Below, piece after piece: positions 4,688 to 47,400 of a DNA stretch of 64,000 bases. Below the pieces are notes generated by a model, which saw only the letters and a list, made by a program, of their open reading frames with translations, ran no database searches and was not told where the DNA came from. Origin of the DNA: Nitrososphaerota archaeon (GTDB lineage: Archaea; Thermoproteota; Nitrososphaeria; Nitrososphaerales; UBA57); the NCBI GenBank assembly GCA_013378375.1, contig JACAFT010000002.1, positions 13,802 through 77,801 on the forward strand, given 5' to 3'. Position 1 is the first letter of the stretch. Each line of letters starts with the position of its first letter. Both the position numbers and the translations under genes were made by a program.

Positions 4688-4753
4688 ATATGATTGTTAT
4701 TTTAATTTATTATTAAGTAATAAATATTTTGTTGTTACAGAAATATTTGTAGC

Positions 4754-5275
4754 TTAGTCTACAACTATTATTTTACCGATCATAAACGGATGAGGTTCAC
4801 AATAAAATTCAAATTCGCCAGTTTCGTTGAATGTAAATGAAAATGCTCCATTGAAAGTAAGTTCTGGGGATTTGAATACATGATCTCCTCTTTTACCTGG
4901 AGGTCCTTCCATAACATTATGCCAATCAACACCGCCTCCGCCACCATCTATTGTCAAGTCCTTTTGTCTCCAGACTACTTTAGTTCCTTTTTTAATAGTA
5001 ATTTCAGATGGTTTAAATTTTAAATTTTCCATTGTAATTTCAACCTTACCTGATAATACTTCACCATCTTCTGGTTTTACTTCTTGAGCTTCTACTGGTT
5101 CTGGTACAGGTTCTGGTACAGGTTCTGGTACAGGTTCTGGTACAGGATCTATATCTGGGTCAAAATTACCTTGTTCTTCATTTATGTTAGTTTCTGTATC
5201 TCCCGGTAACAAAATTATAATTGATAATGCCCCAAGTCCTATTACTAAAACTAATGCAATTATTTTTGCATCCAT
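4754..5275 (-). CDS. Membrane-anchored type-1 (blue) copper protein, plastocyanin/cupredoxin family
   Basis: N-terminal TM helix, (PEPV)n linker, C-terminal cupredoxin with ligand pattern H...YCEPHPFM (Cys-x2-His-x3-Met). Confidence 0.75.
   Translation of the reverse strand: MDAKIIALVLVIGLGALSIIILLPGDTETNINEEQGNFDPDIDPVPEPVPEPVPEPVPEPVEAQEVKPEDGEVLSGKVEITMENLKFKPSEITIKKGTKVVWRQKDLTIDGGGGGVDWHNVMEGPPGKRGDHVFKSPELTFNGAFSFTFNETGEFEFYCEPHPFMIGKIIVVD
5097..5144. repeat. Four perfect tandem copies of a 12-nt unit (GGTTCTGGTACA) encoding the PEPV linker of the cupredoxin
   Basis: Counted directly: 5097-5108, 5109-5120, 5121-5132, 5133-5144. Confidence 0.95.
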
Positions 5276-17972: not shown

Positions 17973-18092
17973 GCCGGGGTTGCCGAGCCAGGTCAAAGGC
18001 GCTGGACTTAAGATCACTCTCAATTGAGAGTCATGCAATATGACATCCCGTCACTTAGGTGTTCGTGGGTTCAAATCCCACCCCCGGCACCA
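17973..18092 (+). tRNA. tRNA-Leu (anticodon UAA), class II with long variable arm, 32-nt intron at the canonical 37/38 position (18013-18044), 3' CCA encoded
   Basis: Acceptor GCCGGGG/CCCCGGC. Anticodon arm CTGGA-CTTAAGA-TCCCG after removal of ATCACTCTCAATTGAGAGTCATGCAATATGAC (one U-C mismatch). Variable arm CAC-TTAG-GTG. T arm GTGGG-TTCAAAT-CCCAC. Confidence 0.8.
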
Positions 18093-40706: not shown

Positions 40707-41426
40707 ATGATACTTATTATGCTTGGATCTTACTTTCTATTTTCAGAATATAAGTTAATTGAAGGTTTGTTGTATCTTATCGGTTCTTTTATTGGATATC
40801 GAGTTTTTCGAATAGCACGAGAAGGTTATAGGGATACACGTAGCCCTACTATGCTTAGACTTACTATTTCTTTTATTGCACTTACAATTGGATTCTTTAT
40901 GACTGCCTTTACCTACATCTTTCCTATATTTACACAACTCACTTTCAACTCCAATTTTCTATTTAATTTTCGTTTTGAATTATTAGGAATATCAATTGCA
41001 TTAACTTCTTTGTTTTTTATAATTGCGGCATCATTTGAACTCTTGGGTTATTTTATTCTGGCATTGGGGCATGGTATTAAATCATATCAAAGATCTGCTT
41101 TAGTTCCTGCTGCATTTGGCTTTTTAACTACCGTATCTGTTTTATCTATTTTGAAATCAATTTCTTTCGTTTTTCTTCTTTACGGGGCATTTGAAACCTT
41201 TTTATCATATTTAGAAGCAAAAAAACGTCCTATTTTGTATATGTTTCTTGGTTTTGCTATGTTGTCTATAGGTGAATTTATAAGGTGGTTAGCATTATTT
41301 TACTCAGGTTTAACTCCGTTAATGATATCTTCTATTTTAGTCAAATTAATTGGATTCATAATGCTTTATACCCCAGTAAGTAAATATAACTCGTTAAAAG
41401 GAATTAATCAAAATGTCGACATATAG
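40707..41426 (+). CDS. Seven-helix membrane protein, unknown function
   Basis: 239 aa. About 7 hydrophobic segments by eye. The 3' end overlaps the following wHTH gene by 14 nt. Confidence 0.5.
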   Translation: MILIMLGSYFLFSEYKLIEGLLYLIGSFIGYRVFRIAREGYRDTRSPTMLRLTISFIALTIGFFMTAFTYIFPIFTQLTFNSNFLFNFRFELLGISIALTSLFFIIAASFELLGYFILALGHGIKSYQRSALVPAAFGFLTTVSVLSILKSISFVFLLYGAFETFLSYLEAKKRPILYMFLGFAMLSIGEFIRWLALFYSGLTPLMISSILVKLIGFIMLYTPVSKYNSLKGINQNVDI

Positions 41427-41700
41427 AACTCAAGTCAAAATAGTTGCAGATGTACTCTCATGCATTAGTGATGGTAATGCTGGAGAACAAGGACTTGGTA
41501 TTACTCGTATTTTACAAAAAGCAAATCTGTCTTATTCTAGAGCTACAAATATTTTGAATCGTCTAATTAAGTTTGGTTTAGTAGAACAAATTAATATAGA
41601 CAATAGTCAAAGATATGTTATTAGTCATAAAGGTATAGAATTTTTACAATCACATTCAGACTTTGCTGACTTTGCTGAAAGTTTCGGTATGAAGCTCTAG
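41413..41700 (+). CDS. Small winged-helix DNA-binding protein (COG3432-like archaeal regulator)
   Basis: 95 aa. GITRILQKANLSYSRATNILNRLIKFGLVEQ helix-turn-helix, followed by a beta wing (RYVISHKG). Confidence 0.6.
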   Translation: MSTYRTQVKIVADVLSCISDGNAGEQGLGITRILQKANLSYSRATNILNRLIKFGLVEQINIDNSQRYVISHKGIEFLQSHSDFADFAESFGMKL

Positions 41701-41710
41701 TTTTCTTTAC

Positions 41711-42556
41711 ATGAAACTAGGAGTACATGTATCAATTGCAGGTTCGATAGATCTTTCTATTGATAGAGCTAAATCTTTAGGTCTAGATACTTTTCAAATA
41801 TTTACAAGGAACCCAAGAGGTTGGAAGTTTACCGATCTTAAATCTAATGATGTTGATAATTTTCAAAATAAAATTCTAACTGAGAAAATCCAATCTGTTG
41901 TATGTCACATGCCTTATTTACCAAATTTATCTTCTCCGAAAGATTATGTTCATAAGCTATCAATTGAAGCGTTAACTTCTGAATTAAATCGATGTAATCA
42001 GTTAGGCATTAAATATGTTGTTACTCATATAGGAAGTCATTTAGGTTCAGGCGTGGAAGAAGGACTTAAACGAGTAATTGATGCTTGTAATCAATCTCTT
42101 GCTAATTCCAAAGGGGATTCAATGATTATTCTAGAAAATACTGCAGGAACAAAAAATAGTGTAGGTTCGAAATTTGAAGAATTGAAACACATTTTTGACA
42201 ACGTTGATGATAATACGCGTTTGGGTTTTTGTTTTGATACTTGTCATGCATTTGCCGCAGGATATGATCTGTCTACAAAAAATGCCGTTCATAATACTAT
42301 CAGTGAATTAGATCATATTCTTGGTTTGAATAATCTAAAAGTAGTTCATCTTAATGATTCCAAAGGTGGTCTTGGTGAGCACCTGGACCGGCATCATCAT
42401 ATTGGTCAAGGCTATATAGGAGAAAAAGGATTCCGGGAGATTTTAAAAAATCAATCAATTACCAATCTGCCTATGATCTTGGAAACTCCAATAGATGAAA
42501 ATACTGGAGATTTAGATAATATTAAAAAAATACAAATTTTACATTCTCATTCATAA
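41711..42556 (+). CDS. nfo: Endonuclease IV (AP endonuclease, TIM barrel)
   Basis: 281 aa. VTHIGSH, CFDTCHAFAAGYD, HLNDSK and HHHIG metal-ligand motifs. Confidence 0.9.
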   Translation: MKLGVHVSIAGSIDLSIDRAKSLGLDTFQIFTRNPRGWKFTDLKSNDVDNFQNKILTEKIQSVVCHMPYLPNLSSPKDYVHKLSIEALTSELNRCNQLGIKYVVTHIGSHLGSGVEEGLKRVIDACNQSLANSKGDSMIILENTAGTKNSVGSKFEELKHIFDNVDDNTRLGFCFDTCHAFAAGYDLSTKNAVHNTISELDHILGLNNLKVVHLNDSKGGLGEHLDRHHHIGQGYIGEKGFREILKNQSITNLPMILETPIDENTGDLDNIKKIQILHSHS

Positions 42557-42626
42557 ATTTTTTGATAAAAACAGCTTCGGCATTATGGTTATATATGGAC
42601 TAAATCATTTTTTTAAATGGGGTAAA

Positions 42627-42893
42627 GTGGCAGCAACTTCGGAATTCAAAATCGACGTTTTGATTTCGAACAAACCGGATATTAAAGATCCGGAAGGCGA
42701 AACAATTTTACAAGATTTGTTTTTACGAAATAATTTTGATGATGTAACTTCTGTTAAGACTGCTAAAGTAATTCAATTAATTATTAAAGCAAATAATATT
42801 GAAGATGCTAAAAGTAGAGCATTATCTATTTGTGATGAGTTGAGAATATATAATCCATTAGTAAGTGTTTGTAATATTCGGAGTTCGGAATGA
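42627..42893 (+). CDS. purS: Phosphoribosylformylglycinamidine synthase subunit PurS
   Basis: The ORF opens at ATG 42585. GTG 42627 gives an 88-aa product that aligns with the family N-terminus (FKIDVLISNKPDIKDPEG). The start is uncertain. Confidence 0.75.
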   Translation: MAATSEFKIDVLISNKPDIKDPEGETILQDLFLRNNFDDVTSVKTAKVIQLIIKANNIEDAKSRALSICDELRIYNPLVSVCNIRSSE

Positions 42894-42894
42894 T

Positions 42895-43608
42895 TTGAAG
42901 GTTGCTATTATACAATTTCCAGGAACTAATTGTGATATAGATACTTATCGTGTTTTTACTAATGAACTTGTTATTGATACTTCTTTAATTTGGCATGAAA
43001 AAGATGTGGATCTACAAGAATATGATGCTGTTATACTTCCAGGTGGTTTTTCTTATGGCGATCATCTTCGTGCAGGTATTATTGCAGCACATAGTCCTAT
43101 TGCAAAACAATTGAAAAAACTTTCTCTTAGAGGAAAACCAATTATTGGAATATGTAATGGTTTTCAAATTTTGGTAGAATTGGGTTTACTTCCTGGTGCT
43201 TTGTTACGTAATTCTAATTTAAGATTTGTTTGTAAATGGACTACGTTAAAAGTTGAAAATACTAATTTGTTTACAAATTGTTTTGAATCTAATTCATTAA
43301 TTCGTATGCCTATTGCGCATAATGAAGGTAGATATTATGTTACTGATGAGACATTACAAGATTTAGAAATTAATAAACAAATTATTTTACGTTATGTTGA
43401 TTCTTCAGGAAAAGTGTCAATTAATAGTAATCCAAATGGTTCAGTTTCAAACATTGCCGCAGTTTCAAATACTGAAGGTAATGTTCTTGGAATGATGCCT
43501 CATCCAGAACGTGCGTCAGAAAATATTCTTAGTCCATATTCTACGAACGACGGTTTAGGTATTTTTAGATCAATGGCTCTTTCTTTGGAGGTAATGCTTA
43601 AAGAATGA
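42895..43608 (+). CDS. purQ: FGAM synthase glutaminase subunit PurQ
   Basis: TTG 42895, just after the purS stop, gives LKVAIIQFPGTNCD. Catalytic GICNGFQ and the HPER triad are present. Confidence 0.9.
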   Translation: MKVAIIQFPGTNCDIDTYRVFTNELVIDTSLIWHEKDVDLQEYDAVILPGGFSYGDHLRAGIIAAHSPIAKQLKKLSLRGKPIIGICNGFQILVELGLLPGALLRNSNLRFVCKWTTLKVENTNLFTNCFESNSLIRMPIAHNEGRYYVTDETLQDLEINKQIILRYVDSSGKVSINSNPNGSVSNIAAVSNTEGNVLGMMPHPERASENILSPYSTNDGLGIFRSMALSLEVMLKE

Positions 43609-43781
43609 GCGACCATTTCTGTGAGTCATGTAAGTTAATCGATTCCGTGAGTGAAAATATAATTCATCGTCACGAACATTTCTGCGAATCTTGTAACAAT
43701 AATGAAATAAGGATAGCAGAGGCTTTGGAGAAGATAGCTCTTGAATTAAGGACGATAAAAGATGAGGTGTTTAAAGCATGA
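43605..43781 (+). CDS. Unannotated 58-codon ORF with duplicated HFCESC (CxxC) motifs and a C-terminal amphipathic helix, translationally coupled to purQ and purL
   Basis: Hand translation: MSDHFCESCKLIDSVSENIIHRHEHFCESCNNNEIRIAEALEKIALELRTIKDEVFKA. ATGA overlaps at both ends (43605-43608 and 43778-43781). GGAGG lies at 43587-43591. Confidence 0.55.
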   Translation: MSDHFCESCKLIDSVSENIIHRHEHFCESCNNNEIRIAEALEKIALELRTIKDEVFKA

Positions 43782-45988
43782 GCAAAACTGAATTTGTAGA
43801 TCATTCTCTTACTGATACTGAATTAGCGTATATTGAAAAATCCCTTCAACGTAAAGCAAATCTTGTTGAATTGACAATGATTGATGCACAATGGTCTGAA
43901 CATTGTAGTTATAAATCCTCTAAATCATTACTCAAACTTCTTCCAACTAAAGGAAAGAGAGTGTTGCTTGGACCTGGTTATGAGGCTGGCGTCTTAGACG
44001 TTGATAATGGACAAATTCTTACTATGCATATAGAAAGCCATAATCATCCTTCTGCAATTGATCCCTATGGAGGTGCAGCAACTGGTGTTGGTGGAGTACT
44101 TCGTGATATTCTATCAATTGGAACTAGACCCTTGGCCGTTCTTGATTCTTTACGCTTTGGTAATCTTGACAGTACTAATAGTAAATGGCTACTTCGAAAT
44201 GTAGTTCGTGGTATTGCTGATTATGGAAATTGTGTTGGAATTCCTACTATCGGTGGTGAATTGTCATTTGATTCTTGTTTTGAAACTAATTGTTTAGTTG
44301 ACGTTGTTTGTATTGGCGTTGGAAAAAGAAAACAATTGATATATTCAGAAGCAAAAAATGTAGGCGATATTCTAATATTGTTAGGTGGAAGAACTGGTAG
44401 GGATGGAATTCATGGTTCATCATTTGCCTCAAAAGATTTAGAAGACGAACCTGAAGATCGTTCTGCAGTTCAAATTCCTGATCCACTCATGAAAAAATTA
44501 ATTATCGAAGCAACACTTGACGCACTGTCCACTGGATATGTTTCTGGACTTAAAGATCTTGGAGGTGGAGGTCTTGCGTGTTGTTTATCAGAAGTTAGTG
44601 ATATGGGGAATACTGGTGTTGAAGTTGATCTTGGTAAAATCCACTTACGTGAATCTAATATGGAACCTTATGAGATCCTTATATCTGAATCACAAGAAAG
44701 AATGCTCTTTATTGTAAATCCAAATAATTCTACAGAAATTTTAAAAGCTTTTGATAAATATAATCTTCCTTATTCAGTTATTGGTAAAGTAACTGATAGT
44801 AAAAGTGTAGTTATTAAACAAAATAACAAAATCATTGTTGATTTACCCACATCTCTTATTGCAAATGCTCCTTTGATAAATTGGCCTAAAACTAAACCTG
44901 ATCATTTAAATAATATTTCTCATTCGAAACCTGAATTACCATCAAATATTCAAGAAACTATATTGAAAGTTTTATCGTCTCCAAATCTTGCTAATAAATC
45001 TTGGATTTTTAGTCAATATGATCATGAAGTTGGCACAAATACCGTAATAAAACCCGGTGAATCTGGAGCTTCGGTAATGCGTATTTCTAACGAAAAATTT
45101 ATTGCAATATCTGTTGATGGGAATCCTTCTCATTGTTATCTTGATCCTTATCATGGTGCCGCAGGTGTTGTAGCTGAAGCAATGAGGAATGTAATTTCTG
45201 TTGGGGCAGAACCAATTGCAATGCTTGATCATTTACAATTTGGCAATCCTGGTAATTCTGATGTGTTTTGGACATTCAATGAAACCATTAATGCTCTTTC
45301 AGATTTTTGTTATTATATTGATTTGCCTTGTGTTGGTGGGAAAGTAAGCTTCTATAATGAAGATGCAAAAACTCATGAAGCAATTAAACCCAGTCCTGTG
45401 ATTTCTGTCGCTGGTTTGATTAAAGGTTCGCATAATATTAGAACACGGAAAATTTCTACATCACATCCTGTCATTGTTTTGGTTGGAACTACATTTGATG
45501 AATTAGGAGGTTCTGAATATTATTCAGTTATGAACAATAAGAACTCTGGTATTGTTCCTAAACTAAATTTTGAACTAGAAAAGAAAGCACAAAAACTAGT
45601 ACGTGATGGAATTAAAGTTGGATTGTTTGGAGCAGTGACTGATTGTTCTAAAGGCGGTTTAGTTCATTCTTTGTTACAAATGTGCATGAGTGGTGATATT
45701 GGTGCTAGTGTTGATCTTTCTAAAATTCCAACTAATTGTAAACGCTGGGATGATATCTTATTTTCCGAATCTCATTCTCGTTTTCTTGTAACTATTAAAG
45801 AAAAAAATCTTGTTAATTTATTGAATATTTCTAGAAATCATAATATTCCTGTCTCAATTATTGGTTATGTCGGAGGTAAAGATCTGGAACTTAAAAATAA
45901 CGACGATGTACTTTTTTCAAGTGAAATTACTTACATTTCAGATTCTGTATATTCAAGTTTATCTAAATTAATGGATGATGCTGTTTGA
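43778..45988 (+). CDS. purL: FGAM synthase II, large subunit PurL
   Basis: 736 aa. Conserved ESHNHPS, GGAATGVGG and DLGGGGL blocks. Confidence 0.95.
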   Translation: MSKTEFVDHSLTDTELAYIEKSLQRKANLVELTMIDAQWSEHCSYKSSKSLLKLLPTKGKRVLLGPGYEAGVLDVDNGQILTMHIESHNHPSAIDPYGGAATGVGGVLRDILSIGTRPLAVLDSLRFGNLDSTNSKWLLRNVVRGIADYGNCVGIPTIGGELSFDSCFETNCLVDVVCIGVGKRKQLIYSEAKNVGDILILLGGRTGRDGIHGSSFASKDLEDEPEDRSAVQIPDPLMKKLIIEATLDALSTGYVSGLKDLGGGGLACCLSEVSDMGNTGVEVDLGKIHLRESNMEPYEILISESQERMLFIVNPNNSTEILKAFDKYNLPYSVIGKVTDSKSVVIKQNNKIIVDLPTSLIANAPLINWPKTKPDHLNNISHSKPELPSNIQETILKVLSSPNLANKSWIFSQYDHEVGTNTVIKPGESGASVMRISNEKFIAISVDGNPSHCYLDPYHGAAGVVAEAMRNVISVGAEPIAMLDHLQFGNPGNSDVFWTFNETINALSDFCYYIDLPCVGGKVSFYNEDAKTHEAIKPSPVISVAGLIKGSHNIRTRKISTSHPVIVLVGTTFDELGGSEYYSVMNNKNSGIVPKLNFELEKKAQKLVRDGIKVGLFGAVTDCSKGGLVHSLLQMCMSGDIGASVDLSKIPTNCKRWDDILFSESHSRFLVTIKEKNLVNLLNISRNHNIPVSIIGYVGGKDLELKNNDDVLFSSEITYISDSVYSSLSKLMDDAV

Positions 45989-47400
45989 GGGAAAAGTGTG
46001 GTCTTTTTGCGGCATTTTCTACATCAAAAACTGATGTTATTCCTCTTGTAACCATTGGTCTAAGAGGTTTGCAACATAGAGGTCAGGAAGCTTGGGGCAT
46101 AGCTACTCCAACCATGAATCCTTTCAAACAAAACGGACTCGTTAGTGAAAATTTGGATCAATCGGCCCAAGTTCTTCAACAAATGAAAACTAATATTGCA
46201 ATTGGACATGTGCGGTATTCAACTGCAGGTGGTACATCTCTTTCTAATGCGCAGCCCCTTTCTATAAATAAAAAATTCTGTCTAGCACATAACGGTACTG
46301 TTTGTGATCTTAATTCAGTAAATATTAAGCTCACCAACCAAAAACCTAGACGAATTAATGATACATCAATCGTTGGTAAAAGATTGTTATCTATACTTAA
46401 GGCAAATAAATTCGATTGGTTCAAATCAATCGAATTATTATGCGACGAACTAGTTGGCGCCTATTGTTTTGTAATATTAACTCCTAATAATGAAATCTAT
46501 GCATTTAGAGATACTCGTGGTTTTCGACCTTTATGCATTGGCTGGCACAAAAAATCAAAAACATATCTTGTATCTTCAGAAAGTTGTGCATTTTCAATGA
46601 TTGGTGCTGAATTGAAACGTGATATTAAACCTGGTGAAATAGTTAAAATTTCAAATCAAGGTGTGGAGTCGTATTCCTTTTCACGCGGAGAACGAACTGC
46701 TCATTGTTCTTTTGAATATATCTATTTTGCACACCCTAGTTCTGTTATTGATCAAACAAGTGTTTATGAGAGTAGACGTAAATTGGGTCAAATGCTTGCT
46801 GAGCTGTATACAGTCAAAGGAGATGTTGTTGTTCCTGTACCTGATTCTGCACGACCTGCTGCTCTTGGATTTTCAGAAAAATCAGGAATTCCTATGGTGG
46901 AGGGACTAATGAAAGATAGATATACAAAACGTGGAAGTCAAAGAAGCTTTATTCAACCAAAATATAAAGAACGTTTAAAAATTAATCGTTGGATTATGCC
47001 TGTTAAAAGTGCAATAGATGGGAAAGATGTGATTGTTATAGATGATAGTATAGTTCGTGGAATAAGTTCTAAAGCAATAGTAAAAACACTTCGTACTTCT
47101 GGCGCAAAAAGTGTTAAAATTCTTGTTACTTATCCTCCAATTCGTCATCCTTGTCGTGCAGGAATTGATTTTCCAACACATGAAGAATTGATTGCATATA
47201 ATACGTCTGGTAAAAATTCTGATATAGATACTATAAATAAAAAAGTTTGTAAATCTGTTAATGCAGATTTTGTTGGATATAATACTGTGGAAAATCTTTC
47301 TGCTGGTATAGGAAAAAAATCATCTGAGTTGTGTATGGCTTGTCATGATGGTGAATACGGAGTACTCAATCGTAATCTTAGTAATGAAACCTCGGAGTGA
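45985..47400 (+). CDS. purF: Amidophosphoribosyltransferase
   Basis: 471 aa. N-terminal nucleophile context KCGLFA, PRPP loop VIVIDDSIVRG, C-terminal Cys residues. Confidence 0.9.
   Translation: MREKCGLFAAFSTSKTDVIPLVTIGLRGLQHRGQEAWGIATPTMNPFKQNGLVSENLDQSAQVLQQMKTNIAIGHVRYSTAGGTSLSNAQPLSINKKFCLAHNGTVCDLNSVNIKLTNQKPRRINDTSIVGKRLLSILKANKFDWFKSIELLCDELVGAYCFVILTPNNEIYAFRDTRGFRPLCIGWHKKSKTYLVSSESCAFSMIGAELKRDIKPGEIVKISNQGVESYSFSRGERTAHCSFEYIYFAHPSSVIDQTSVYESRRKLGQMLAELYTVKGDVVVPVPDSARPAALGFSEKSGIPMVEGLMKDRYTKRGSQRSFIQPKYKERLKINRWIMPVKSAIDGKDVIVIDDSIVRGISSKAIVKTLRTSGAKSVKILVTYPPIRHPCRAGIDFPTHEELIAYNTSGKNSDIDTINKKVCKSVNADFVGYNTVENLSAGIGKKSSELCMACHDGEYGVLNRNLSNETSE

What the first reader, a model, noticed from the sequence alone, without database searches (positions are those of the whole stretch)
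43605..43781. Hidden 58-codon double-CxxC ORF translationally coupled between purQ and purL
The 170-nt gap between purQ and purL is filled exactly by an ORF too short for the supplied track. Its ATG overlaps the purQ stop (ATGA, 43605-43608), and its own TGA overlaps the purL ATG (ATGA, 43778-43781). The product is MSDHFCESCKLIDSVSENIIHRHEHFCESCNNNEIRIAEALEKIALELRTIKDEVFKA. It has a duplicated HFCESC motif (a four-Cys zinc-knuckle candidate with flanking His residues) and an amphipathic C-terminal helix. Other junctions in this operon use the same ATGA/TAATG coupling, and GGAGG lies 13 nt upstream. The position between the glutaminase and synthetase subunits of the PurS/PurQ/PurL FGAM synthase complex suggests either a fourth small subunit or assembly factor, or a metal-dependent regulator of the complex. 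No such component is part of the canonical PurLQS description.
Basis: seen in the sequence. Interest (0 to 1): 0.6.

Follow-up and report, generated by a model that had tools for sequence, protein, structure and literature searches.

The report
Mobile small cysteine protein gene in purQ–purL
The 58-codon reading frame wedged between two purine-synthesis genes is a real, strongly conserved gene for a tiny cysteine- and histidine-rich helical protein found only in a few related marine ammonia-oxidising archaea, but it also occurs at an unrelated genome position and is missing from close relatives, so it looks like a movable accessory gene rather than a fixed fourth part of the enzyme.

Summary
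ORF 43605-43781 fills the purQ-purL gap exactly, with ATGA overlaps at both ends. It is protein-coding: dN/dS is 0.04-0.16 across relatives, variable sites by codon position are 9/5/34, and three Cys plus His23 are invariant in 31 variants (the fourth Cys in 30 of 31).

The family is an orphan. An HMM search of 1.84 billion representative proteins found only its own cluster, and there was no Pfam, NCBIfam, PHROG, PADLOC or PDB match. Public MAG records already call it a "hypothetical protein".

The "fourth FGAM-synthase subunit" reading is weakened in three ways:
- Close relatives (PurL 84% identical to the window, or 92% to an ORF-bearing sister) lack the ORF and have purQ overlapping purL directly.
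- One lineage (L091) acquired the ORF plus about 62 nt of purL by recombination.
- An 86%-identical, equally constrained copy is free-standing at an unrelated locus. In a sister lineage that slot holds a different small gene.

AlphaFold2 predicts an acidic Rop-like helical hairpin with a coiled-coil helix, not a zinc ribbon.

Best reading: a horizontally exchanged accessory micro-protein, probably metal-binding and protein-binding, that was inserted at the junction and adapted to keep purL translationally coupled. A facultative link to FGAM synthase remains possible but is untested.

The parts
42627..42893 (+). purS (88-aa form, GTG start inferred by length from relatives; the mechanical ORF starts at 42585)
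   Evidence: Pfam PurS E=3.7e-16. The stop is TGA 42891-42893. Gene calls of 88 aa in L085, L086 and L089.
42895..43608 (+). purQ (237 aa, TTG start 1 nt after the purS stop). Its stop TGA 43606-43608 overlaps the small ORF's ATG.
   Evidence: NCBIfam TIGR01737 E=2e-91. 237-aa gene calls in relatives. Sequence read.
43587..43591 (+). GGAGG Shine-Dalgarno-like motif 13 nt upstream of the small ORF's ATG. It lies within purQ codons, and its conserved core is GAGGT.
   Evidence: Read. The GAGGT core is invariant in 8 ORF-bearing loci. It is also present in ORF-less relatives, where it precedes purL.
43605..43781 (+). Small ORF, 58 aa: MSDHFCESCKLIDSVSENIIHRHEHFCESCNNNEIRIAEALEKIALELRTIKDEVFKA. 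An acidic orphan micro-protein rich in Cys and His.
   Evidence: ORF. dN/dS 0.04-0.16. Variable columns by codon position 9/5/34, and pN/pS 0.10 in frame against 1.2-2.5 in the unlinked frames. Only its own cluster was found among 1.84e9 representatives.
43620..43631 (+). First CxxC pair (Cys6-Glu-Ser-Cys9), preceded by His4
   Evidence: C9 is invariant, and C6 is present in 30 of 31 distinct variants.
43665..43694 (+). His cluster H21-R-H23-E-H25 followed by the second CxxC pair (Cys27-Glu-Ser-Cys30). The spacing is H23-x3-C27-x2-C30.
   Evidence: H23, C27 and C30 are invariant. H21 is present in 29 of 31 variants and H25 in 30 of 31.
43698..43769 (+). Predicted helix 2 (residues 32-55), with heptad core I37/L41/I44/L48/I51/V55 and a coiled-coil-like 'IAEALEKIALEL' stretch
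   Evidence: AlphaFold2 gives H32-55 with pLDDT 88-91. The weak PDB sequence hits are nearly all designed coiled coils matching residues 37-52. The variable positions 39/43/50/53-54 fall on one helix face.
43764..43769 (+). GAGGTG Shine-Dalgarno-like motif for purL, 8 nt before its ATG, encoded by Glu54-Val55 of the small ORF
   Evidence: GAGGTGTTTAAA is invariant in all 8 pur-context loci. Free-standing copies have AAAGTGTTTGAG at the same place.
43778..45988 (+). purL (smPurL, 736 aa). Its ATG overlaps the small ORF's TGA.
   Evidence: NCBIfam TIGR01736 E=2e-266. Sequence read.
45985..47400 (+). purF (amidophosphoribosyltransferase), with a TTG start overlapping the purL stop (TTGA)
   Evidence: Pfam GATase_7/GATase_6/Pribosyltran. 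Sequence read.
43670..43804 (-). 44-aa antisense ORF, judged a by-product of the sense gene and not part of the feature
   Evidence: It shares wobble positions with the sense frame, so its low pN/pS (0.15) is not independent. That frame has 2 stops across the sense ORF span. It is frameshifted by the 1-nt deletion in L083, which the sense ORF tolerates. It runs into purL and has no start context.

Best explanation
The ORF is a real gene for a 58-aa acidic micro-protein rich in Cys and His. It belongs to an orphan family confined to a few closely related lineages of marine Nitrosopumilales.

It is an accessory gene exchanged horizontally, not a core part of FGAM synthase. It was inserted exactly at the ancestral purQ-stop/purL-start overlap. 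Its last codons were then shaped to give GAGGTG plus an ATGA overlap, so ribosomes finishing purQ translate it and then reinitiate on purL. This keeps the operon's translational coupling intact and makes the peptide roughly in step with PurQ and PurL.

The product is most likely a helical hairpin that pairs into a four-helix bundle. The N-terminal CxxC of one chain and the loop CxxC (plus His23) of the other would then form metal sites at each end. It probably acts by binding another protein. In this genome FGAM synthase is the obvious candidate partner, but only as a facultative one.

Shown: coding status, selection, orphan status, patchy distribution, the recombination tract, and the second genomic context.
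Inferred: metal binding, dimerisation, protein binding, and any link to FGAM synthase.
For: Coding and constraint:
- dN/dS is 0.04-0.16, as low as or lower than purQ and purL.
- Variable sites by codon position are 9/5/34.
- C9, C27, C30 and H23 are invariant in 31 distinct variants, and C6 is present in 30 of 31.

Orphan status:
- Only its own cluster was found among 1.84e9 representative proteins.
- The first homology search found 8 close hits only.
- Nothing passed threshold in Pfam, NCBIfam, PHROGs, PADLOC or PDB.

Accessory and mobile:
- It is absent from L085 (PurL 84% identical to the window), from L089/L090 (PurL 92% identical to ORF-bearing L091), and from L092, L087 and L013. All have purQ and purL adjacent or overlapping directly.
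- L091 is a mosaic. The ORF plus about 62 nt of purL are of the window/L001 type, and the flanks are of the L089 type. Window and L091 show 9 of 31 synonymous differences against a flank pS of 0.56 (nominal P=0.002).
- The small protein is about 90% identical where PurQ is 64-76% and PurL 80-87%.
- A free-standing copy, 86% identical, has its own TAA stop and follows a 116-aa acidic orphan gene near PolD-small, Band_7 and ThiL-like genes in six contigs. Those copies differ by 0-1 nonsynonymous against 0-10 synonymous changes.
- In sister lineage L105 the same slot holds an unrelated 61-aa membrane ORF.

Adaptation to coupling: GAGGTG and the ATGA overlap are invariant in pur-context copies, while free-standing copies have AAAGTG...TAG.

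Fold:
- AlphaFold2 predicts a helical hairpin, H6-26 and H32-55, with mean pLDDT 81.
- The best structural analogue is the Rop hairpin, at TM 0.81 and not significant.
- Residues 37-52 resemble designed coiled coils.
- The net charge of about -5 (12 acidic against 7 basic residues, counted from the sequence) argues against nucleic-acid binding.
Against: - There is no direct evidence of translation, metal content, oligomeric state or partner.
- The structure model rests on 9 near-identical sequences. AlphaFold2 is documented to mispredict Cys4 geometry in archaeal micro-proteins (PMC11241148), so a compact intramolecular zinc site is not excluded.
- I could not establish whether genomes lacking the ORF at the pur locus carry the free-standing copy. 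If they always do, the protein would be universal in this clade and a constant role with FGAM synthase would regain plausibility.
- Tight coupling and a position between the two subunits that must dock is what a dedicated subunit would look like. PurS itself was once an overlooked small ORF in this operon (PMC3261824).
- The synonymous-site tests rest on about 31 sites and are not corrected for multiple testing.
Confidence: 0.55

Rival explanations
1. Dedicated fourth component of FGAM synthase. The peptide binds the PurS2-PurQ-PurL complex as a small structural subunit, an assembly factor, or a metal- or redox-dependent regulator. Its place between purQ and purL reflects that role.
For: - The ATGA/ATGA coupling between the two subunit genes is exact and invariant in all 8 pur-context loci.
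- The peptide is more conserved than PurQ and PurL.
- Nearly all surface-type polar residues are invariant, as expected for a peptide largely buried in an interface.
- The first ~20 codons of purL travel with it in L091.
- There are precedents for archaeal small proteins that bind and modulate enzymes: sP26 with glutamine synthetase (10.1101/2020.05.06.080432) and MtrR with Mtr (PMC13370731).
- PurS was itself an overlooked small ORF (PMC3261824).
Against: - Sister lineages with 84-92% identical PurL lack it at this locus and keep direct purQ/purL coupling.
- A constrained copy exists at an unrelated locus with no purine genes in the operon.
- The family is absent from all other organisms with smPurL/PurQ/PurS.
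- The canonical complex needs no such part (PMC3261824).
- No interaction test could be run.
Confidence: 0.17
2. A stand-alone metal- or redox-handling micro-protein unrelated to purine synthesis, such as a zinc/copper/nickel buffer or chaperone, or a thiol redox switch. It uses the pur operon only as a convenient, steadily expressed landing site.
For: - It has four near-invariant Cys and four near-invariant His in 58 residues, and is acidic.
- The free-standing copies are equally constrained.
- The H23-x3-C27-x2-C30 spacing recalls redox-sensitive zinc sites of ZAS anti-sigma factors (from memory only).
- Predicted Cys4 micro-proteins in haloarchaea bind zinc, another metal, or none (PMC11241148).
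Against: - Strong conservation of the whole helical surface and the coiled-coil heptads points to a specific protein partner or a defined oligomer rather than a simple metal buffer.
- No homology to any known metallochaperone or redox family was found.
- This idea cannot be separated from the best explanation with sequence data alone.
Confidence: 0.2
3. A 'junction plug'. The insert is essentially selfish or neutral. It persists because it now carries purL's ribosome-binding site and coupling signal, so only a precise deletion is tolerated.
For: - The insert supplies GAGGTG and the ATGA overlap for purL.
- Similar ~20-nt sequences (GAGGT..TTAAAGnATGAGC) flank it.
- It shows patchy presence and lateral spread by recombination.
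- The alternative slot behaves like a replaceable cassette position.
Against: - A mere spacer would not keep dN/dS at 0.04-0.16 with invariant Cys and His.
- Free-standing copies, which plug nothing, are under equally strong amino-acid constraint.
- There is no mobility gene and no viral or defence link.
Confidence: 0.06
4. Not a protein gene. The spacer would be conserved as an RNA element or as the 44-aa antisense ORF (43670-43804), or the frame is open by chance.
For: - The region is more conserved at the nucleotide level than its flanks: 87-94% against about 70-80% between lineages.
- The antisense ORF stays open in 7 of 8 loci.
Against: - No structure signal was found. The fold z-score is -0.43, and the RNAalifold covariation term is +0.38 with 3 compensatory pairs out of 69.
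- The third-position bias (9/5/34) and pN/pS of 0.10 hold only in the sense frame and its wobble-linked antisense frame, which has stops.
- The antisense ORF is frameshifted in L083.
- The chance of an open frame is about 0.013.
- Rfam found nothing here.
Confidence: 0.02

Closest known systems
Archaeal zinc-finger micro-proteins with two C(P)XCG motifs (Haloferax volcanii HVO_2753, HVO_0758 and others; PMC11241148, PMC10716476, PMC6562870)
   Same: Both are archaeal, under 70 aa and single-domain. Both have two CxxC pairs that suggest a Cys4 metal site. Functions are mostly unknown and probably work through binding partners.
   Different: - There is no sequence homology.
- The motifs here are C-E-S-C-K and C-E-S-C-N, without the Pro/Gly consensus.
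- The predicted fold is a helical hairpin with the Cys pairs about 20 residues of helix apart, not a zinc ribbon.
- The protein is acidic and carries an HRHEH cluster.
- It sits inside a coupled enzyme operon.
Small proteins that bind and tune metabolic enzymes in Methanosarcina mazei: sP26 with glutamine synthetase, MtrR with the Mtr complex (10.1101/2020.05.06.080432; PMC13370731)
   Same: These are very small archaeal proteins, and MtrR forms oligomers. They modulate a large enzyme by direct binding. This is the functional model for a facultative FGAM-synthase modulator.
   Different: Those interactions were shown experimentally, whereas none is shown here. There is no homology. They are not cysteine-rich and were not described as translationally coupled between the target's subunit genes.
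PurS (YexA), the small third component of smPurL-type FGAM synthase (PMC3261824)
   Same: Both are small proteins (<100 aa) encoded in the same operon. PurS was historically missed by gene finders and is thought to act as a protein-interaction module.
   Different: PurS is near-universal wherever smPurL occurs and is required for activity. This ORF is confined to a few lineages, is dispensable in close relatives, is unrelated in sequence and predicted fold, and also occurs away from pur genes.
Rop/ROM-type helical hairpins that dimerise into four-helix bundles
   Same: The predicted fold superposes on Rop (4do2_A, TM 0.81, rmsd 1.6 A over 56 columns). The length is similar, about 60 aa. The heptad pattern has small residues flanking the core.
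   Different: The match is not statistically significant (E=2.4), as is usual for hairpins. Rop has no metal site and binds RNA. This protein is acidic and Cys/His-rich. The dimer is inferred, not predicted.
Brz, the small zinc-finger regulator encoded next to bop in Halobacterium salinarum (PMC2253796)
   Same: Both are small archaeal CxxC proteins encoded immediately beside the genes they are thought to serve.
   Different: Brz regulates transcription of its neighbours. The net negative charge here and the lack of any DNA-binding signature make that mode unlikely. There is no homology.

Membership tests
FGAM synthase complex component (smPurL/PurQ/PurS type) | Co-occurs with smPurL and PurQ across organisms that use the split enzyme | tested here: not met
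   It is absent from L085, L089, L090, L092, L087/L088, L013 and the bacterial loci. Only one cluster was found in 1.84e9 representatives.
FGAM synthase complex component (smPurL/PurQ/PurS type) | Encoded with, and co-expressed with, the other subunits | tested here: inconclusive
   This is met in the window and in 7 further pur-context loci with distinct sequences, through ATGA overlaps on both sides. It is not met in six free-standing loci.
FGAM synthase complex component (smPurL/PurQ/PurS type) | Physically associates with PurL/PurQ/PurS and affects activity or assembly | not testable with these tools
No multimer tool or experiment was available.
Archaeal C(P)XCG zinc-finger micro-proteins | Fewer than 70 aa with at least two CxxC motifs | tested here: met
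   58 aa with C6-x2-C9 and C27-x2-C30. Three of the four Cys are invariant across 31 variants, and C6 is present in 30 of 31.
Archaeal C(P)XCG zinc-finger micro-proteins | C(P)XCG consensus (Pro after the first Cys, Gly after the second) | tested here: not met
   The motifs are CESCK and CESCN in all variants.
Archaeal C(P)XCG zinc-finger micro-proteins | Binds one zinc through four Cys in a zinc-ribbon or knuckle fold | tested here: inconclusive
   AlphaFold2 gives a helical hairpin with the Cys pairs at opposite ends. AlphaFold2 is unreliable for this feature (PMC11241148). Metal content cannot be tested here.
Pfam DUF6510 (PF20120), best Pfam match | Score at or above the gathering threshold (26.4 bits) | tested here: not met
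   14.5 bits, E=0.033. No such relatives appeared in the exhaustive profile search.
ZAS-type zinc sites (HxxxCxxC of anti-sigma factors) | HxxxCxxC motif at a helix-helix junction plus an upstream Cys/His ligand | tested here: inconclusive
   The H23-x3-C27-x2-C30 spacing is present and invariant and lies at the predicted helix1/helix2 junction. There is no Pfam anti-sigma zinc-finger hit at E<=1, and archaea have no sigma factors. The resemblance is from memory and is only a lead.
Rop-like four-helix-bundle dimers | A helical hairpin of about 60 aa that forms an antiparallel homodimer | tested here: inconclusive
   The hairpin is predicted (pLDDT 81) and superposes on Rop at TM 0.81 with E=2.4.
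Phage, defence or mobile-element gene | Homology to phage or defence families, or presence on viral contigs | tested here: not met
   PHROGs gave only E>=0.012 noise, PADLOC gave none, and no relative was found in IMG/VR.

The most novel reading that the evidence does not exclude
A new kind of facultative enzyme accessory. This would be a horizontally spreading micro-protein gene that inserts precisely into the stop/start overlap of two translationally coupled subunit genes, rebuilds the coupling signal from its own last codons, and yields a metal-bridged four-helix-bundle dimer. That dimer would dock on the PurQ-PurL interface and tune glutaminase-synthetase coupling (for example in response to zinc or redox state) in some marine ammonia-oxidising archaea but not in their sisters.
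Probability: 0.12. Interest if true: 0.7.

Novelty: new variant of a known kind. Interest (0 to 1): 0.38.

Why it matters
Marine ammonia-oxidising archaea are among the most abundant cells in the ocean, and their small proteins are essentially unstudied. This case shows three things:
- An uncharacterised orphan micro-protein can be under stronger constraint than the housekeeping enzymes around it.
- Such a gene can be slotted into an essential, translationally coupled operon without breaking the coupling, and can then move between lineages by recombination.
- 'Guilt by position' for small ORFs can mislead. The same gene sits in an unrelated slot in a related lineage.

If the peptide does bind FGAM synthase, it would be the first accessory factor described for the split PurLQS enzyme. 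If it does not, it is a clean example of how accessory micro-genes colonise operon junctions.

Tried and rejected
- **RNA element.** The single-sequence fold has z=-0.43, and RNAalifold gives no covariation support. Rfam finds nothing here. Rejected.
- **Antisense 44-aa ORF (43670-43804).** Its low pN/pS is an artefact of shared wobble positions, it is frameshifted in L083, and it has no gene context. Rejected.
- **Paralogue or source sequence elsewhere in the window.** tblastn found none.
- **Distant homologues.** A word-indexed search gave only 84-95% identical hits. The exhaustive profile search gave its own cluster plus one spurious repeat protein, P0009. The PDB profile search gave only designed coiled coils, above E=0.02.
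- **Viral or defence origin.** IMG/VR scan, PHROGs and PADLOC were all negative.
- **Genome-contig scan with PurQ.** It was swamped by bacterial PurQ because of the IGICNGFQ motif. I therefore could not check complete genomes for co-occurrence of the two contexts.
- **Flanking direct repeat as a target-site duplication.** This was only partly upheld. The shared GTGTTT in free-standing copies shows that part of the 3' similarity is the gene's own sequence, later tuned into GAGGTG.
- **The 116-aa neighbour of the free-standing copy.** It is also an orphan and gives no functional clue.
Full report
**1. The observation**

The window carries a tightly packed purine operon.
- purS is at 42627-42893 and purQ at 42895-43608.
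- A 58-codon ORF lies at 43605-43781.
- purL is at 43778-45988 and purF at 45985-47400.
- Gene identities were confirmed by Pfam and NCBIfam.

The small ORF's ATG overlaps the purQ stop, and its TGA overlaps the purL ATG (ATGA in both cases). GGAGG lies 13 nt upstream at 43587-43591. The other junctions are equally tight: purS and purQ are 1 nt apart, and purL/purF overlap as TTGA.

With the window's base composition, a random 57-codon stretch stays open with probability of about 0.013.
- The exact HFCESC duplication is specific to this lineage. Relatives have H-[S/T/L]-CESC in the first copy.
- The upstream motif is CGAGG in many relatives, so the conserved core is GAGGT.
- Public gene callers already list the ORF as a hypothetical protein, e.g. 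MCH2379972.1.

**2. It is a protein-coding gene under strong purifying selection**

I recovered the same ORF in the same position from a Nitrosopumilales MAG (L001) and from metagenome contigs (L081-L084, L086, L091).
- Nei-Gojobori dN/dS for the small ORF is 0.04-0.16. Flanking purQ gives 0.04-0.35 and purL 0.03-0.13.
- Variable alignment columns fall 9/5/34 on codon positions 1/2/3.
- pN/pS is 0.10 in the proposed frame and 1.2-2.5 in the unlinked frames.
- In 31 distinct full-length variants, C9, C27, C30 and H23 are invariant and C6 is present in 30 of 31. Variation is confined to positions 5, 17, 39, 43, 49, 50, 53 and 54.

A 1-nt deletion at the very 3' end in L083 is absorbed by a 59-aa product with an ATGAGTAA overlap.

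An RNA-structure explanation finds no support. The fold z-score is -0.43, the covariation term is +0.38, and Rfam has nothing here. The 44-aa antisense ORF is a wobble-linked by-product.

**3. The family is an orphan**
- A word-indexed search of 5.8 billion clusters found only 8 hits at 84-95% identity.
- An exhaustive profile search of 1.84 billion representatives found only the family's own cluster, plus one spurious repeat protein.
- Nothing passes threshold in Pfam (best is DUF6510, E=0.033), NCBIfam, PHROGs, PADLOC or the PDB.
- There is no relative on viral contigs and no paralogue in the window.

**4. Comparative genomics argues against a fixed role in FGAM synthase**

PurL and PurQ trees resolve four close lineages: the window; clade A (L001 and others); L085; and clade C (L089, L090, L091).

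*Patchy presence.* The ORF is present in the window, clade A and L091. It is absent from L085 (PurL 84% identical to the window) and from L089/L090 (PurL 92% identical to L091). There the purQ stop overlaps the purL ATG directly. It is also absent from the more distant L092, L087/L088 and L013.

*Recombination.* L091 is a clear mosaic. Its purQ 3' end, and its purL beyond about +62 nt, are of the L089 type. The 174-nt ORF plus the first ~62 nt of purL are of the window/L001 type. Window and L091 have 9 of 31 synonymous differences in the ORF against a flank pS of 0.56 (nominal P=0.002). Two pairs within clade A show the opposite deviation. The small protein is about 90% identical where PurQ is 64-76% and PurL 80-87%. 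Together these results indicate lateral exchange of the ORF by homologous recombination.

*A second context.* The variant MSDHTCESC...KALEDIALELKDIKNKVFEK (86% identical) is a free-standing gene in six contigs.
- It lies 25 nt downstream of a 116-aa acidic orphan gene, has its own TAA stop, and is followed by AT-rich non-coding DNA.
- Its neighbourhood holds the PolD small subunit, Band_7, a methyltransferase and a ThiL-like AIRS protein.
- These copies differ by 0-1 nonsynonymous and 0-10 synonymous changes, so they are equally constrained.
- In sister lineage L105, with conserved flanks, the same slot holds an unrelated 61-aa two-helix membrane ORF.

**5. Adaptation to the junction**

All pur-context copies end ...GAG GTG TTT AAA GCA TGA. 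This provides GAGGTG 8 nt before the purL ATG, plus the ATGA overlap. Free-standing copies end ...AAA GTG TTT GAG AAG TAG.

The upstream GAGGT-N13-ATG signal belongs to purQ's last codons. In ORF-less relatives it serves purL. The two ends of the insert thus carry similar ~20-nt sequences. This could favour precise loss, and it explains how coupling survives both gain and loss.

**6. The protein**

AlphaFold2 was run with a 9-sequence alignment.
- It predicts a helical hairpin, H6-26 and H32-55, with mean pLDDT 81. Confidence is lower (67-73) around the Cys motifs.
- The best structural analogue is Rop (TM 0.81), which is not significant, as expected for hairpins.
- Residues 37-52 (IAEALEKIALELRTIK) match designed coiled coils.
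- The variable positions lie on one face of helix 2.
- The net charge is about -5, counted from the sequence, which argues against DNA or RNA binding.

In a hairpin the two CxxC pairs sit about 20 helical residues (about 30 Å of helix) apart. A single intramolecular Cys4 site is therefore inconsistent with the model. An antiparallel Rop-like dimer would bring C6/C9 of one chain next to H23/C27/C30 of the other. AlphaFold2 is also known not to predict Cys4 geometry reliably, and predicted Cys4 micro-proteins may bind zinc, another metal, or none (PMC11241148).

**7. Most likely mechanism, and rivals**

*Best explanation (about 0.55).* This is an accessory, laterally exchanged micro-protein gene. 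It landed at the purQ/purL overlap and was tuned to keep purL coupled. Its product is a probably metal-bridged, oligomeric helical hairpin that acts by binding a protein partner. FGAM synthase is the leading candidate partner in this genome, but it is neither proven nor obligatory.

*Rivals.*
- A dedicated fourth FGAM-synthase component: 0.17.
- A stand-alone metal or redox micro-protein merely using the operon for expression: 0.20.
- A selfish 'junction plug': 0.06.
- Not a gene: 0.02.

The canonical archaeal enzyme is smPurL+PurQ+PurS (PMC3261824).

**8. Comparison with known systems, and verdict**

The closest kinds are these:
- Haloarchaeal C(P)XCG zinc-finger micro-proteins. Size and the two CxxC pairs match, but the consensus and the predicted fold do not.
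- Enzyme-modulating small proteins of Methanosarcina (sP26, MtrR), as a functional analogy only.
- PurS, as a historical and positional analogy.
- Rop, as a fold analogy.

It is a member of none by homology. I rate it a new variant of a known kind, namely small archaeal Cys-rich micro-proteins. Its unusual, well-documented evolutionary behaviour is precise insertion into a coupled junction, lateral spread, and an alternative slot. Interest is moderate at 0.38. The gene is real and strongly constrained. However, its function is unknown, the organisms are uncultured, and the most exciting reading (a facultative FGAM-synthase subunit) is not favoured by the comparative data.

Noticed in passing
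L072 ~4693-5209 (Gemmatimonadaceae MAG): A 104-aa protein with a Zn_ribbon_TFIIB domain (PF13453, E=3e-13; CPKC...CTNC) is encoded between purQ and purL in this bacterium. It is an unrelated CxxC/CxxC small gene at the same junction. In L042 (Chloroflexota) the same gap holds a 55-aa hydrophobic ORF.
   Followed up: partly
L105 682-867 (also L106, L107): The slot after the 116-aa acidic orphan gene holds the Cys4 gene in L093 and L101-L104. Here it holds an unrelated 61-aa two-transmembrane ORF (weak holin-like PHROG hit, E=0.015). The flanks are conserved, so the slot behaves like a cassette position.
   Followed up: partly
L089 vs L090, first ~400 nt of purQ: The two contigs are 99-100% identical from about purQ nt 400 through purL, but only 64-83% identical in the purQ 5' part. 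This is either a recombination breakpoint inside purQ or an assembly chimera.
   Followed up: no
L086 3501-4154: PurQ is 217 aa here, with about 20 residues missing, although the rest of the locus is about 99% identical to L001. It may be a deletion allele or an assembly error.
   Followed up: no
window 43778-43830 and the same region in 7 related loci: The first ~50 nt of purL are almost invariant at the nucleotide level, synonymous sites included, in all ORF-bearing lineages. The sequence is quite different in ORF-less relatives (MSKTEFVDHSLT vs MSSTQSVSYSLT / MSKLESLNLSLT). This is consistent with co-transfer with the ORF. A translation-initiation constraint is not excluded.
   Followed up: partly
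window 17973-18089 (+): Rfam reports a 117-nt tRNA match (39 bits) that ARAGORN, run with bacterial settings, does not call. It is probably an intron-containing archaeal tRNA.
   Followed up: no
window 41413-41700 and 40707-41426 (+): Upstream of the operon lie an AP-endonuclease-2 gene (41711-42556), a 95-aa HTH_45 winged-helix protein and a 239-aa membrane protein that overlap by 14 nt. This block is syntenic with the pur operon in L086, L089, L095 and L096, so the small regulator might control the operon.
   Followed up: no
L093 28-737 / L101 2-475: There is a run of three or four paralogous small membrane ORFs (43-76 aa, MKNKTKTRL.IGGTV.L...) beside the free-standing Cys4 gene locus. This suggests a region rich in small accessory genes.
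   Followed up: no
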